From a virus, in UHGV virus genome UHGV-0228197: 36,878 nucleotides of DNA; one strand, written 5' to 3'. The position numbers are program-made. Positions 15,001-18,000 of the stretch are shown one piece after another (position 1 is the stretch's first letter; every line of letters begins with the position of its first letter).

Positions 15001-18000
15001 GCCGCGACTGATTCGCAATATCCAGTAAACCGTATCCCATATTGCCCCCTTACGCTGACACCAGTTTTCCGCCAACACTCAGTTGTTGTCTTGCAGGTGC
15101 AGAAGCCCCCGTCAGTATGTTCATCTGGCGATCCTGCTCTGCTTCACGGATACCATTTTTCGCGCCAGCAATTGCCAGAGCATTACGCAAACCCAGTGTG
15201 TTACTGTTGGGATTATCCGGGCGGCTTACCCCGTATCTCGCCATCTGGTTATCCTGCGCCATCTGCGCTGCACGGAGACTGGAAGTGGCAAGGCCGCCCA
15301 CCCGGGCAAGCTGTGCATTCATCAGGCTGTTGTTCTCGCCAAGGTCAGCCAGCCTTGCCACGCGGGGCAAATATCTGGTTCGCCAATCGTCGTATTGTTG
15401 GCGTGTCAGCGCTGCTGACGTCTGCCAGTCACCCTGTGGACGGGCAGCTCCGGTATAACCGTATCTCGCAAGTGTTTCGTATTTACCGTACTCCATAATC
15501 ACAGTCTCCAGTTCTGAGCCTGATGCTGAATGGCATTAGCGCCGGTGCCAGGTGTTTTAGCACCGCCACTTCCTCCGCTACCGCCAGCCTTATACATCGC
15601 ATATGCACCTACCGCACCCAAACCAGCGCCAACAAGAGAGGCTCGCCCCTGCTGTTTCGTAAACGCAGCCTGTGCGTCCGATTTAGCTTTTGCCAGACTG
15701 CTGTCTGCCAGCGAGTTAAAACTCTGTAACGCATCCGCCTTTTGACCAGAACCGAGAGCAGCAACATCCTGTAGCCCGGCAACATACTTATCTGCCTGCG
15801 ATACCTGCCCCCGTGTGGTTGTGTCAATCTGCCCGGTTACCTGATCACTCTGGTTCGCATTCATTACCGCGTTAAAGCGACCACTGGACGGGTCAACACC
15901 GGACTGAGCAAGATTATCCGCCAGCTCCTTCCGTGCTTCGCCAAACTGTTTCTGATACCCCAGATTTGTGGTGCCAGCAATATTGTCGTACTGCTGCTCA
16001 CTGTTCAGGTCATCGACCTTTTCCATGAAGTTATCTTCAGCCGGGCGGAGGATTTTTTGATAATCCTGCCACCCTTTCCAGGCCACTTCTTCCTGTGCTA
16101 TTTGCGCTGCTGTTGGTTTTACTTTGGTATCACCACCGCCTTTTTTTCCGCCCATTATGGCCCCCTGGATAACAAAAAACCCTGCCGGGGCAGGGTCAGA
16201 ATGTGAATTGCAATTGGTTTACACACGATAATGAATACAGTGGCAGTCAGACCGCTATCCTGAACACCATGAAGCCATCCTCATCATCCGGCATTCGCTC
16301 AAAGCCCAGACGTTTTCCCAGCCGGATAAATCCCCGTCTTGCCGTATGAAATTCAGCCCAGCGTCCGCCAGCCAGACGGGTTAATGTCTTCACCTCCGGC
16401 AGATAATGCTCAACGCTGTTACTCCCCGTACACACGCCCAGCAACACCAAAACATAAGGGATACCATCAGCACTGAGCACAGAACGCAGCACCAGAAAGC
16501 CATCAGGTGCCTCAAAACAAAACGCCTGCTTTTTAAGGCAGGCGTCTTTAACTTCATTCATAAATTCAGGGTTGCGGGAATTTCTCACAACACGCTGCAT
16601 ATACCGGAGAATTTTGTCGTCCATTCTCTCACCAGAAACGGGTGCCATATCGGCTGAACCTCAGCAACCAGTTGACGGGGACTTTCGTCCCCGTCGCGGT
16701 TTTCCTACTGCTTACACTGTAAGAACGCCGCAAACTCCGCTCCCCACAAATTCAGCCGGAACTCACACAACGAGCCGTGTAACATCCAGATGGTGAAGAT
16801 TACCGTCATACAAATTGTGACGGTGATGAGCGATTTTTGCGACATAGCGCTTGCCTCCTGAGTGGAGAGGCGCTAACCTTCTACTTGCTTAAGGTATGAT
16901 GGTTAGGGCCTCGGGTTAAACAAAATGTTTGACTCGGGGCCTTTCCACATCAGGCCTTCAGGTTCACCTTCCAGCCATCAGCCGAAAAGCACCCGCGCAT
17001 AATCTACGATTTTTGCCCTGCACGGGCAACAAAAAACCCGCCATCACAGCGGGTTATGACATGTTGTCGGGTATTACTCAGAATTTCAGGCCAATGCCTG
17101 CAAATAAACCATCAGTTTTCCAGTCGCCAGAGCCTGAGCTTTCATAAGTGACGTCCATAGTAACACTTTCATTGAAGTTAAATTGCGCGCCGACAGACCA
17201 TGCAATAGACGTTTTTTTGGTGCTGTTACTTTCAGAAAAACTACCGGCACCATGATTAAGATTGTCGTTAATTTTCAAGTCAGTGGTGACTTTTGCAACC
17301 CCCATACCAGCCATTGCATACACACTGAGGTATTCGTTAAACCGCCACGAAGGACCGGATAGTAGACTCCAGTAATTAGCCCTGATATCAGTTCTCGCTG
17401 AAGCTGCCGGGTTTTTTACCTCTCGTGATGGAGCGGAAGGCTTAACATCAATAAATGCCTGCGCATTAGTCATGGAGCGCGCCCATGTAAAAGAGGCTAT
17501 AACACCCAGTTCATCAGTTATCTCGTAACGATACCTGATGCTCATCCCCAGGGGGCTTTTGGCTGTGCCGTCATGCCCCCGGGCAATAGCATTTTCGTAT
17601 TCACCTGATGAATTAAAATGGTTTACGTTTACAACATTCCTGAACGTATCCCGGTTATAAACACCCACGTCTCTAACAAAATCCTTCAGCCCGGGGAAGC
17701 GTATGTGTGCAAACCCGAGAGATACCGTACTATCGCCTGATGCTGCATTTACCTGTGCAGTTAAGCAACTCATCACCAGAACTGCACACGCAAAAAATTT
17801 CATGATACTTTTCATTTTAAGTATTTCTCTGAATTAAAGGATGCGATGTCTGAAAGGAACGCTTTCGTTTTACACTATTAAAGTTTTTCTTACGCTAATC
17901 ATATATTGAGGAACTAATAACCAGAACTTTATCTATATACGGCTTTCGGATATCCCATGTTGCACCACCGGAATAATGCTCACAGGAATATATTTTATTT

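What the first reader, a model, noticed from the sequence alone, without database searches (positions are those of the whole stretch)
16247..16648. Uncharacterised 125-133 aa protein apparently co-transcribed with the hok-like toxin
Canonical hok loci end in a terminator right after hok. Here a second ORF starts 57-81 nt downstream of the hok stop and the terminator comes only after it. Its C-terminus (RRGFIRLGKRLGFERM...DGFMVFRI) is faintly GNAT-like, but I cannot assign a family. A protein partner for a type I toxin cassette would be unusual.
Basis: inference. Interest (0 to 1): 0.4.

Follow-up and report, generated by a model that had tools for sequence, protein, structure and literature searches.

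The report
Conserved phage gene beside hok toxin
The small gene next to the hok toxin is not the toxin's partner but an old, conserved late gene of Shiga-toxin-type phages with an acetyltransferase-like fold, and its coding sequence hides a conserved terminator-like RNA hairpin.

Summary
The ORF is real. It lies on the minus strand, most likely 16624..16247 (125 aa); the upstream ATG at 16648 sits inside the hok mRNA fold-back element. It is vb_24B_43/ECs_1237, family phrog_610, in a 933W-type Stx prophage.

It is not a hok partner. In 36 of 93 related loci no hok is present. In others lom or an adhesin gene separates hok from the ORF. The ORF always heads the same cassette: phrog_611, 596, 594, 601 and a giant LPD5 protein. 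Those five are found in Phi24B virions; the ORF product is not.

Two AlphaFold models (pLDDT 87 and 95) give a GNAT-like fold. The top 50 PDB matches are all GNAT acetyltransferases. The acetyl-CoA motif A and any Pfam match are missing, so enzyme activity is unproven.

The new point is a hairpin plus U-tract at codons 27-37 (16549..16514). Its synonymous sites are frozen across proteins only 50% identical, and it shows some compensatory change in distant relatives. I read it as an embedded intrinsic terminator. This is untested.

The parts
16247..16624 (-). CDS of the 125-aa protein (vb_24B_43 / ECs_1237 / phrog_610), stop codon included. GNAT-like fold. First gene of the conserved post-tail cassette.
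   Evidence: ORF list. phrog_610 E 5e-69, aligning from residue 9 of the 133-aa version. Homologues are 121-125 aa. AF2 pLDDT 87.4 and 94.6. Foldseek top hits are all GNAT.
16625..16648 (-). In-frame upstream extension (ATG 16648), probably not translated as part of the protein. Contains the SD-like GGTGAGAG (16633..16626). Its 5' end overlaps the hok fbi.
   Evidence: Homologues lack it. In L023 the adhesin insertion separates the hok-side GGCACCCGTTT (ATG 16648 lies just 5' of it) from TGGTGAGAG, and the ORF starts with GTG at the 16624 position.
16514..16549 (-). Terminator-like RNA element embedded in codons 27-37 (D-A-C-L-K-K-Q-A-F-C-F). Stem ACGCCUGC/GCAGGCGU (16545..16538 with 16529..16522), extended by A/U pairs. 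8-nt loop. U-tract UUUUGUUUU (16522..16514).
   Evidence: Flagged by the scan. dG -17.8, z -3.6. Synonymous sites frozen in 17 representatives, 8/8 against 4/44 columns, p 6.6e-7. Present in 25 diverse family members, 96.4% of cells paired, pair 12-33 = CG/AU/UA/GU/UG. Alternative stems occur in distant members.
16168..16197 (-). Canonical intrinsic terminator after the ORF (GACCCTGCCCCGGCAGGGTT + TTTTGTTATC), in the 91-nt spacer before phrog_611.
   Evidence: Homologous terminator only in E. coli and Salmonella L058/L062. In other clades the spacer is 7-19 nt in most (about 255 nt in Yersinia L002/L003) and none has a terminator-like hit there.
16705..16845 (-). hok-family toxin CDS (46 aa).
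   Evidence: Pfam HOK_GEF E 4e-8, 33 bits above cut-off 22. phrog_251. NCBIfam HokA-like, below cut-off.
16834..16994 (-). hok mRNA leader (tac at the 5' end GGGUGCUU; Sok target region).
   Evidence: Rfam RF01794, 39.2 bits, E 1.6e-6, full-length model but below the gathering score of 59. Alignable with Salmonella hok leaders.
16640..16657 (-). fbi (fold-back inhibition) element of the hok mRNA, pairing with the 5' tac. Marks the 3' boundary of the hok cassette.
   Evidence: Duplex -30.5 kcal/mol. 5' nt 1-7 and 10-14 pair with 16640..16646 and 16650..16654 in the MFE folds of three candidate transcripts; the duplex and MFE structure strings extend the helix to about 16657. The cassette boundary is shown by L023.
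16673..16696 (-). Stem-loop directly after the hok stop (GACGGGGAC-GAAA-GUCCCCGUC). No U-tract on the sense strand.
   Evidence: An equivalent hairpin is present in Salmonella hok cassettes.
17001..17029 (-). Putative hok promoter: TTGCCC (17029..17024), 17-nt spacer, TAGATT (17006..17001), +1 about 16994.
   Evidence: Read from the sequence. 8/12 match, below the scan threshold. Inferred.
16851..16965 (+). Sok-type antisense unit: promoter TTGCCT (16851..16856), 17-nt spacer, TAACCT (16874..16879), and an antisense RNA of about 80 nt. The published 24B_1 small RNA of Phi24B maps here.
   Evidence: Sequence. Nejman-Falenczyk 2015 give the -10 box as CGCTAACCT and 24B_1 at HM208303 45711-45692. 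Mapped via L093. The extent of the RNA is inferred.
17035..17815 (-). lom moron (CDS 17078..17815) with its own terminator (17055..17035), upstream of hok in the same variable slot.
   Evidence: Pfam Ail_Lom E 2.5e-29. Terminator. Presence and order vary among loci.
5093..16155 (-). Conserved cassette that the ORF heads: phrog_611 (15499..16155), phrog_596 (15050..15502), phrog_594 (14789..15040), phrog_601 (13513..14778) and the giant LPD5-type polyvalent protein (5093..13444).
   Evidence: PHROG hits. Synteny in all lineages. All five homologues were detected in purified Phi24B virions.

Best explanation
The ORF (125 aa, start ATG 16624) is an ancestral late gene of 933W-type short-tailed phages. 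It is the first gene of a conserved cassette whose other products are packaged into the virion as internal or ejection proteins: phrog_611, 596, 594, 601 and the giant LPD5 polyvalent protein. The ORF product is a small cytoplasmic protein that was not detected in virions. It has a minimal GNAT-like fold. Its most likely role is as an accessory factor for the cassette proteins, either an acyl-transferase or a degenerate GNAT acting as an assembly or packaging helper. That role is inferred, not shown.

The hok/sok unit, like lom and in some strains an Eib/YadA-like adhesin gene, is a moron inserted in the variable slot between the tail-tip gene and this ORF. There is no functional toxin-partner relationship.

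In this E. coli version the hok cassette ends at its fbi element and has no terminator of its own. Transcripts from the hok promoter in lysogens therefore run into the ORF. About 95 nt past the fbi they meet a hairpin plus U-tract embedded in codons 27-37. This element predates the hok insertion and is under RNA-level selection across the family. I propose it is an intrinsic terminator with two effects. It stops transcription that is not Q-antiterminated (moron or spurious promoters) before the packaged-protein cassette. It also incidentally gives this hok mRNA a 3' end, for a transcript of about 480 nt. Any read-through stops at the second terminator, 16197..16178. During lytic growth, Q-modified polymerase reads through both.
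For: Shown:
- The window is a Sepvirinae Stx-type phage late region.
- ORF-611 synteny holds in all but 1 of the 93 loci (L014 shows no 611 match; two loci show partial matches and in L063 the match lies about 2.5 kb further downstream, behind an insertion), and similar gene strings follow the ORF in remote metagenomic relatives.
- hok is absent from 36 of 93 loci, even with an HMM search at --max and E<=1.
- The order of hok, lom and adhesin varies.
- The cassette boundary lies at GGCACCCGTTT | TGGTGAGAG.
- Salmonella hok cassettes carry fbi plus their own terminator; the E. coli one does not.
- tac-fbi pairing is -30.5 kcal/mol and appears in all MFE folds.
- The fold is GNAT-like: pLDDT 87.4 and 94.6, and the top 50 PDB hits are all GNAT, TMq up to 0.68.
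- The Phi24B virion proteome lists gp47, gp48, the 86-aa protein, gp50 and gp51, but has no entry for 45981-46382.

Embedded element:
- z-score -3.6.
- All 8 of its conserved codons are frozen, against 4 of 44 elsewhere, p 6.6e-7. Phe codons in the U-tract are TTT in 17/17, while other Phe columns mix TTT and TTC.
- 96.4% of cells pair. Pair 12-33 occurs as CG, AU, UA, GU and UG. 0 of 500 shuffles reach the covariation score.
- Distant members keep a hairpin plus U-tract with different stems and different peptides (ACSNEWAFLF, ACSNERAFLF).
- It is the only terminator-like hit within +-400 nt in most loci.
- L103 lacks it but has a terminator 42 nt upstream of the gene.
- The late operon carries several other strong terminators, as expected for Q antitermination.
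Against: - No transcript 3'-end data could be consulted, so termination at the embedded hairpin is untested. The Term-seq supplement is not held.
- The 8-nt loop is large for a strong terminator.
- Only one stem pair shows full Watson-Crick compensatory change. 'Pairs with a change on both sides' is not above the shuffles (412/500), and three pairs never vary.
- The 25 sequences in that count all share the AC....AF.F peptide motif, so peptide constraint contributes.
- Four divergent members (L110, L102, L103, L104) lack the hairpin at this site. L114 keeps a hairpin but has a weak U-tract.
- Lysogen-specific antiserum picked expression clones covering hok and the ORF 5' end in Phi24B (CM19, CM23). 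This may mean some ORF protein is made in lysogen cultures, or it may reflect spontaneous induction.
- Protein role: GNAT motif A is absent, and there is no Pfam, NCBIfam or PDB sequence match. No biochemical or genetic data exist.
Confidence: 0.6

Rival explanations
1. One reading: the ORF is a protein component of the hok locus. It would be translated from a bicistronic hok-ORF mRNA that ends at 16197..16178, and it would modulate or complement the toxin.
For: No terminator lies between hok and the ORF. The hok promoter and the strong post-ORF terminator bracket both genes like one moron. CMAT clones CM19 and CM23 span hok and the ORF 5' end. The post-ORF terminator is restricted to E. coli and some Salmonella lineages that also carry hok.
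Against: - The ORF family occurs without hok in 36 of 93 loci and in all remote relatives.
- lom or an adhesin gene can sit between hok and the ORF.
- Salmonella hok cassettes terminate before the ORF.
- The ORF is translationally and positionally coupled to phrog_611 elsewhere, with gaps of 7-19 nt.
- A conserved terminator-like hairpin lies inside the ORF.
Confidence: 0.06
2. The ORF is an active GNAT acyltransferase that works as a lysogenic-conversion or anti-host effector. It might, for example, acetylate a host target, aminoacyl-tRNA or a defence component. It would be expressed in lysogens from the hok promoter rather than serving the virion cassette.
For: The fold is GNAT, and close fold matches include the tRNA-acetylating toxins GmvT, AtaT, TacT and KacT and the N-terminal acetyltransferases. 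In E. coli the gene is flanked by a lysogen-active promoter region and a terminator. CMAT signal is seen in lysogen cultures. The product is not in virions.
Against: - Synteny with the late packaged-protein cassette is universal, including lineages with no promoter-bearing moron upstream.
- There is no antitoxin-like neighbour.
- Motif A is missing and the beta4-alpha3 loop is variable.
- There is no PADLOC hit.
- The fold matches are spread evenly over the whole GNAT superfamily, not specific to toxins.
Confidence: 0.15
3. The conserved hairpin is real but is not a terminator. It could be an mRNA processing or stability element, a ribosome-pausing signal, a binding site for a phage protein, or a conserved DNA 'linker' that promotes recombination at the border between the mosaic tail/moron region and the conserved cassette.
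For: - The protein N-terminus upstream of the hairpin is the most variable part of the family, and mosaic boundaries cluster at the gene start.
- L114 keeps a hairpin but only a weak U-tract.
- Q-modified polymerase would ignore a terminator in lytic growth.
- The stem is a perfect palindrome, so it could also act as DNA.
Against: - The U-tract synonymous sites are frozen although they lie outside the stem: TTT in 17/17 at F35 and F37, against mixed TTT/TTC elsewhere.
- G-U wobble and compensatory variants keep RNA pairing.
- The sense strand has the U-tract and the antisense strand does not.
- L103 replaces the element with a canonical terminator just upstream.
Confidence: 0.2
4. The nucleotide conservation at codons 27-37 is a by-product of strong peptide constraint (ACxKKQAFCF) plus codon preference, and the hairpin is coincidental.
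For: The peptide motif is the most conserved stretch of the protein. The motif A-C....A-F.F persists at 20-30% identity.
Against: - Other invariant residues (G, R, T, P, L, V, F) use 3-6 codons in the same sequences, whereas all 8 codons in the element are frozen (p 6.6e-7).
- The three third-position to third-position pairs are either invariant (C15-G30, C18-G27) or covary (12-33).
- Distant members change the peptide (KKQ to NEW or NER) yet rebuild the stem.
Confidence: 0.07

Closest known systems
GNAT (Gcn5-related N-acetyltransferase) superfamily, e.g. Naa50, SpeG-like spermidine acetyltransferases, and the TacT/AtaT/GmvT toxins
   Same: The predicted alpha1-alpha2-beta2-beta3-beta4-alpha3-beta5-alpha4-beta6-beta7 topology is the same. 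The top 50 PDB structural matches in each search are all GNAT enzymes (probability 1.0, TMq 0.5-0.68). The C-terminal 'x-R-K/R-G-F-x-R ... L-G-F-E' stretch resembles GNAT motif B.
   Different: It is only 125 aa and lacks beta1. It lacks the Q/R-x-x-G-x-G/A pyrophosphate loop. It has no hit to any acetyltransferase profile in Pfam or NCBIfam, or by sequence in the PDB. It has no antitoxin neighbour. It sits in a phage structural operon.
hok/sok type I toxin-antitoxin loci (plasmid R1 hok/sok; chromosomal hokA-E; hokW-sokW of Sp5, Takada 2021)
   Same: The neighbouring unit has a Hok peptide, a Sok-type antisense promoter, a leader matching Rfam RF01794, and a tac-fbi closure.
   Different: The ORF is not part of that system. 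This cassette also lacks the terminator that follows the fbi in R1 (from my own knowledge) and in the Salmonella relatives. This 46-aa Hok is a different copy from the 51-aa HokW studied experimentally.
Morons of lambdoid phages (lom, bor; Hendrix/Juhala model: promoter-gene-terminator units inserted between late genes)
   Same: lom, hok/sok and an adhesin gene occupy one variable slot between the tail-tip gene and the ORF. Their presence and order vary, and lom has its own terminator.
   Different: The hok moron here has no terminator. The ORF itself is not a moron but part of the conserved backbone.
Intrinsic terminators in Q-antiterminated late operons, and terminators inside leader ORFs (pyrBI-type attenuators)
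   Same: A GC-rich hairpin is followed at once by a U-tract on the sense strand, in an operon that has several other terminators. Like pyrBI (from my own knowledge), the hairpin lies within a translated frame.
   Different: It is embedded in a 125-codon functional gene rather than in a leader or an intergenic spacer. It has been kept there by freezing synonymous sites across a protein family. Termination has not been demonstrated.

Membership tests
GNAT acetyltransferase superfamily | Core GNAT fold (mixed beta-sheet with alpha1-alpha2 / beta2-4 / alpha3 / beta5 / alpha4 / beta6-7) | tested here: met
   AF2 models have pLDDT 87.4 and 94.6 with identical topology. The Foldseek top 50 PDB hits are all GNAT, probability 1.0, TMq up to 0.68. 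BFVD hits include annotated GNAT/acetyltransferase proteins.
GNAT acetyltransferase superfamily | Motif A: Q/R-x-x-G-x-G/A pyrophosphate-binding loop between beta4 and alpha3 | tested here: not met
   The loop residues 66-70 are T-G-S-N-S, with no R/Q-x-x-G-x-G/A. These columns vary across the family.
GNAT acetyltransferase superfamily | Significant match to an acetyltransferase sequence profile | tested here: not met
   Pfam gave 0 families at E<=1 for the ORF, and none of 62 relatives hit an acetyltransferase family at E<=0.1. NCBIfam gave none. The PDB profile search's best GNAT hit was 3fyn at E 2.1.
GNAT acetyltransferase superfamily | Binds acyl-CoA and transfers the acyl group | not testable with these tools
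   Needs biochemistry.
hok/sok type I TA locus (ORF as a component) | Consistent co-occurrence and adjacency of the component with hok | tested here: not met
   hok is absent from 36 of 93 ORF-bearing loci. lom or an adhesin gene is interposed in others.
hok/sok type I TA locus (the neighbouring cassette itself) | Hok peptide, Sok-target leader, and tac-fbi long-range pairing | tested here: met
   HOK_GEF is above its cut-off. tac-fbi pairing is -30.5 kcal/mol. The Rfam sok model scores 39 bits, E 1.6e-6, below the gathering score of 59.
hok/sok type I TA locus (the neighbouring cassette itself) | Own terminator directly after the fbi | tested here: not met
   None lies between 16640 and the ORF. 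One is present in Salmonella relatives. Nejman-Falenczyk 2015 also found no Rho-independent terminator in the lom-vb_24B_43 spacer.
GNAT toxins of type II TA systems (TacT/AtaT/KacT/GmvT) | Adjacent RHH/DUF1778-type antitoxin gene forming a two-gene operon | tested here: not met
   The neighbours are hok upstream and phrog_611 downstream. No antitoxin-like ORF is present.
PHROG family 610 | Full-length profile match | tested here: met
   E 5.1e-69, profile positions 1-124 of 124. All 62 of 62 distant relatives also match.
Intrinsic (Rho-independent) terminator (embedded element 16549..16514) | GC-rich stem, short loop, U-tract immediately 3' on the transcribed strand | tested here: met
   The core stem has 8 bp (6 G-C) and extends to 11 bp, with an 8-nt loop and UUUUGUUUU.
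Intrinsic (Rho-independent) terminator (embedded element 16549..16514) | Selection on the structure (conservation beyond coding needs, compensatory change) | tested here: met
   Synonymous sites are frozen, p 6.6e-7. 96.4% of cells pair, one pair occurs as five pair types, and 0 of 500 shuffles reach the score. Stems are rebuilt in distant members. The caveat is that only one pair shows full compensatory change.
Intrinsic (Rho-independent) terminator (embedded element 16549..16514) | Transcripts end there | not testable with these tools
   No 3'-end mapping data were available.

The most novel reading that the evidence does not exclude
The hairpin plus U-tract inside phrog_610 would be a conserved regulatory gate written into a coding sequence. 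As a terminator, possibly translation-sensitive, it would decide whether polymerases coming from the tail/moron region may enter the cassette of packaged effector proteins, including the giant polyvalent protein. Its RNA requirements, rather than protein function, would explain the family's most conserved peptide motif (ACxKKQAFCF). In E. coli Stx phages a hok/sok cassette that lost its own terminator would have co-opted this gate as its mRNA 3' end. In parallel, the GNAT-like protein itself might acylate the packaged proteins.
Probability: 0.3. Interest if true: 0.6.

Novelty: new variant of a known kind. Interest (0 to 1): 0.4.

Why it matters
First, it removes a false lead. Type I toxins are not gaining a protein partner here; the adjacency is a moron-slot accident.

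Second, it gives a first structural handle on a gene present in essentially all 933W/Sp5/Phi24B-type Shiga-toxin phages and annotated 'hypothetical' everywhere. That handle is a GNAT-like fold, a product not detected in virions, and a position at the head of the cassette of packaged internal proteins.

Third, it exposes a coding-embedded RNA element with frozen synonymous sites. If it terminates transcription, it helps explain how temperate phages keep lysogen-expressed morons from leaking into late genes, and where this hok mRNA ends. It is also a clear case where a 'conserved protein motif' may be conserved for RNA reasons.

Finally, it bears on the literature on the '24B_1 microRNA-size' RNA of Phi24B, which maps to the Sok-type antisense RNA of this same cassette.

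Tried and rejected
- Sequence-profile routes to a function gave nothing for the ORF: Pfam, NCBIfam, PADLOC, and PDB sequence searches with two alignments.
P0050 gave no viral locus. The genome-contig scan returned only one locus. The distant-DNA sample is therefore small: L095, L097, L100, L102-L112, L114.
- The experimentally studied hokW-sokW (Takada 2021) turned out to be a different hok copy (51 aa, MKQQKAM...), so its Northern data do not apply here.
- Term-seq data from Sy et al. 2020 could not be consulted because no supplement is held.
- Searches for ECs1237 and for hok in the Sakai small-gene paper found no functional data.
- The EHEC phage proteomics paper (PMC12502783) gives no per-protein list in its text.
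- No acetylation information is in the Phi24B proteome file.
- I considered a -1 frameshift site (A-AAA-AAG in the loop) and rejected it. The AAA codon is not conserved (GAA, AAC, AAT, CAA variants) and the motif sits in the loop, not upstream of a stimulator.
- I considered an antisense-strand terminator and rejected it, because there is no U-tract on that strand in most loci.
- I looked for a separate sigma-70 promoter for the ORF. None was found on the minus strand at the scan threshold in 15400..18600.
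Full report
**Observation.** The window is the late region, on the minus strand, of a 933W/Sp5/Phi24B-type (Sepvirinae) Stx prophage. A 901-nt query around the finding matches 196 phage records at 90-99% identity, and gene order matches annotated Oslovirus and Traversvirus genomes. The ORF 16247..16648 (-) exists. The hok-family CDS is 16705..16845 (-) (Pfam HOK_GEF 33 bits, cut-off 22). The spacings of 56 and 80 nt are as reported. A strong terminator follows the ORF at 16197..16178.

**The true start.** The start is most likely ATG 16624, giving 125 aa.
- The phrog_610 profile (E 5e-69) and all homologues (121-125 aa) begin there.
- An SD-like GGTGAGAG precedes it.
- In a variant locus (L023) the gene starts with GTG at that position behind a different upstream sequence.

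**The hok cassette.** The leader 16994..16834 fits the Rfam hok/sok model end to end (39 bits, E 1.6e-6, below the gathering score) and aligns with Salmonella hok leaders.
- The 5' end GGGUGCUUUUCGGC pairs with 16640..16657 (-30.5 kcal/mol). It does so in the MFE fold of every candidate transcript. This is the tac-fbi closure typical of hok mRNAs. The upstream ATG 16648 lies inside it.
- In L023 a 398-aa Eib/YadA-like adhesin moron is inserted exactly between GGCACCCGTTT and TGGTGAGAG. This defines the 3' edge of the hok cassette and the 5' edge of the ORF unit.
- Salmonella versions of the cassette carry fbi (AAAGCACCC) followed by their own terminator (CCCCGTTAC...GTGACGGGG-T7). The E. coli version has none.
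The authors of the 24B_1 papers also found no Rho-independent terminator in the lom-vb_24B_43 spacer.

**No partnership with hok.** I collected 93 loci that encode the ORF family.
- The phrog_611 homologue follows the ORF in all but one (no match in L014; partial matches in two loci, and about 2.5 kb further downstream in L063, behind an insertion), and the tail-tip gene precedes it in all but a few.
- hok is present only in E. coli and some Salmonella. 36 loci (Yersinia, Pectobacterium, Brenneria, Chania types and Salmonella L060/L061) have no Hok hit, even with an HMM at --max and E<=1.
- In Chania and several others the upstream gene abuts or overlaps the ORF start.
- Arrangements include lom-hok-ORF (here), hok-lom-ORF (L005), hok-ORF (L007), hok-adhesin-ORF (L023 and similar) and none.
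- Remote metagenomic relatives at 20-35% identity keep the same downstream string, up to a giant LPD5 protein.
- hok/sok is thus a moron in a variable slot. The ORF belongs to the conserved backbone.

**The protein.**
- No sequence-profile library recognises it.
- A full HMM scan of 1.84 billion representatives finds 211 relatives, nearly all 100-160 aa. All 62 tested fall in phrog_610.
- AlphaFold2 gives a confident model: pLDDT 87.4 with 22 sequences and 94.6 (pTM 0.86) with 62. The topology is alpha-alpha-beta-beta-beta-alpha-beta-alpha-beta-beta.
- The top 50 Foldseek PDB matches in both searches are all GNAT acetyltransferases: Naa50/Naa10, SpeG-like enzymes, GmvT/AtaT/TacT and others, with probability 1.0 and TMq 0.5-0.68. 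Viral matches include annotated GNAT proteins.
- The protein lacks beta1. It lacks the Q/R-x-x-G-x-G/A loop (its loop is T-G-S-N-S and is variable). I therefore call it GNAT-like, not a GNAT member.
- The conserved T-x-R-K/R-G-F-x-R...L-G-F-E stretch resembles GNAT motif B (inference).
- In the Phi24B virion proteome, searched against six-frame ORFs, the five downstream cassette proteins are detected: gp51 (phrog_611), gp50, the 86-aa protein, gp48 and the giant gp47. There is no entry for 45981-46382.
- The ORF product is thus a non-virion factor encoded at the head of a cassette of packaged proteins. An accessory enzyme or helper role for that cassette is my inference.

**The embedded RNA element.** Codons 27-37 (DACLKKQAFCF) form ACGCCUGC-CUUAAAAA-GCAGGCGU followed by UUUGUUUUG on the sense strand (16549..16514). 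Its dG is -17.8 kcal/mol and its z-score is -3.6.
- In 17 representatives with <90% protein identity (down to about 50% to the window), the codons for A28, C29, K32, Q33, A34, F35, C36 and F37 are essentially invariant (GCC TGC .. AAG CAG GCG TTT TGC TTT).
- Every other conserved residue uses 2-6 codons. The contrast is 8/8 against 4/44 columns with a major-codon fraction of at least 0.85, Fisher p 6.6e-7.
- The frozen sites include the third-position to third-position pairs C15-G30, C18-G27 and 12-33. They also include the U-tract Phe codons, which are never TTC.
- Across 25 diverse members, 96.4% of cells pair. Pair 12-33 occurs as CG (16), AU (5), UA, GU and UG. No shuffle of 500 reaches the covariation score, and slid registers pair only 38-52%.
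- More distant members rebuild the stem with different codons and even different residues. Examples are AAAGCCUGCUC-UAAC-GAGUGGGCUUU in ACSNEWAFLF and GGCCUGCUC-CAAU-GAGCGGGCU in ACSNERAFLF, always followed by U5-6GU3-5.
- The element is the only terminator-like hit within +-400 nt of the gene in most loci.
- Limits: only one pair shows full compensatory change. Four divergent members lack the hairpin. L114 has a different hairpin with a weak U-tract. L103 instead has a canonical terminator 42 nt upstream of the gene.

**Model.** Steps marked [shown] rest on the results above; steps marked [inferred] do not.
- The late operon is Q-antiterminated and carries several strong terminators [shown for the terminators; the Q logic is established lambdoid biology].
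- In lysogens, promoters of morons in the slot upstream are active. lom expression uncoupled from induction was reported for Phi24B.
- The embedded element would stop such polymerases before the packaged-protein cassette [inferred].
- In this phage it would also provide the 3' end for a hok mRNA of about 480 nt, whose cassette lost its own terminator [inferred].
- The canonical terminator at 16197..16178 catches read-through [inferred].
- A full hok-ORF bicistronic RNA may exist at some level. Two CMAT clones from a lysogen-specific antiserum screen cover hok and the ORF 5' end. That assay cannot separate Hok from the ORF N-terminus, nor lysogens from spontaneously induced cells.

**Comparison and novelty.** The hok adjacency is ordinary moron biology. 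The ORF family is uncharacterised, and the GNAT-like fold assignment appears to be absent from current annotation. A coding-embedded, terminator-like hairpin maintained by synonymous-site freezing across a phage protein family is, as far as I could find in the held literature, not described. It remains a variant of known kinds, not a new category. Interest is moderate (0.4).

Noticed in passing
window + strand ~16851..16965 (promoter TTGCCT-17-TAACCT at 16851..16879); Phi24B HM208303 45711-45692: The published 'microRNA-size' RNA 24B_1 of phage Phi24B and its ~80-nt precursor map to the strand antisense to the hok leader. The authors give the promoter -10 box as CGCTAACCT. A Sok-type antitoxin RNA is expected exactly there. 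Neither 24B_1 paper mentions hok or sok (0 occurrences). Phenotypes of the 24B_1 deletion may therefore reflect disruption of a hok/sok cassette.
   Followed up: partly
L023 2693..3889 (also L026, L034, L038; L031 shows the same ~1.6-kb hok-ORF gap but no lom match): In some E. coli prophages, including L023, a 398-aa Eib/YadA-like trimeric-autotransporter adhesin gene lies between the hok fbi and the ORF ribosome-binding site, with an AT-rich upstream region. It is inserted precisely at that junction. This shows how tightly the moron slot is bounded.
   Followed up: partly
window 16705..16845 (-); Sakai NC_002695.2 between ECs_1236 and ECs_1237: This 46-aa Hok is a second hok copy of Sp5-type phages. 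It is distinct from the 51-aa HokW characterised by Takada et al. 2021. It is not annotated as a CDS in the Sakai RefSeq record or in Phi24B.
   Followed up: partly
L063 4001..4219 and ~6890: In one E. coli prophage the ORF match stops at residue 73, and the phrog_611 gene lies about 2.9 kb downstream. This suggests an insertion, probably an IS element, that disrupts the ORF.
   Followed up: no
window minus strand 13481..13462, 26548..26530, 26988..26971, 29390..29365, 36021..35989: Several strong canonical intrinsic terminators sit in intergenic positions along the late operon. One lies just before the giant LPD5 gene. Terminator-like sites in 18401..36878 number 47, against 17.5 expected from shuffles.
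   Followed up: no
window 14789..15040 (-): The 83-aa glycine-zipper protein (phrog_594, annotated 'bacteriocin' in some records) belongs to the conserved cassette. It was detected in Phi24B virions, where the authors dismissed a bacteriocin homologue as a contaminant. Its conserved synteny suggests it may be a genuine packaged protein.
   Followed up: no
window 16673..16696 (+ strand reading): The post-hok stem-loop has a T-run only on the plus strand (TGACGGGGACTTTCGTCCCCGTCG-CGGTTTTCCT). It could therefore terminate antisense transcription coming from the ORF side. No plus-strand gene is evident there.
   Followed up: no
alignments A1/A3, residues 1-25 of the ORF: The N-terminal ~25 residues (helix 1), upstream of the embedded hairpin, are by far the most variable part of the family. 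The hairpin sits at the border between the variable and conserved parts, which is compatible with recombination junctions near it.
   Followed up: no
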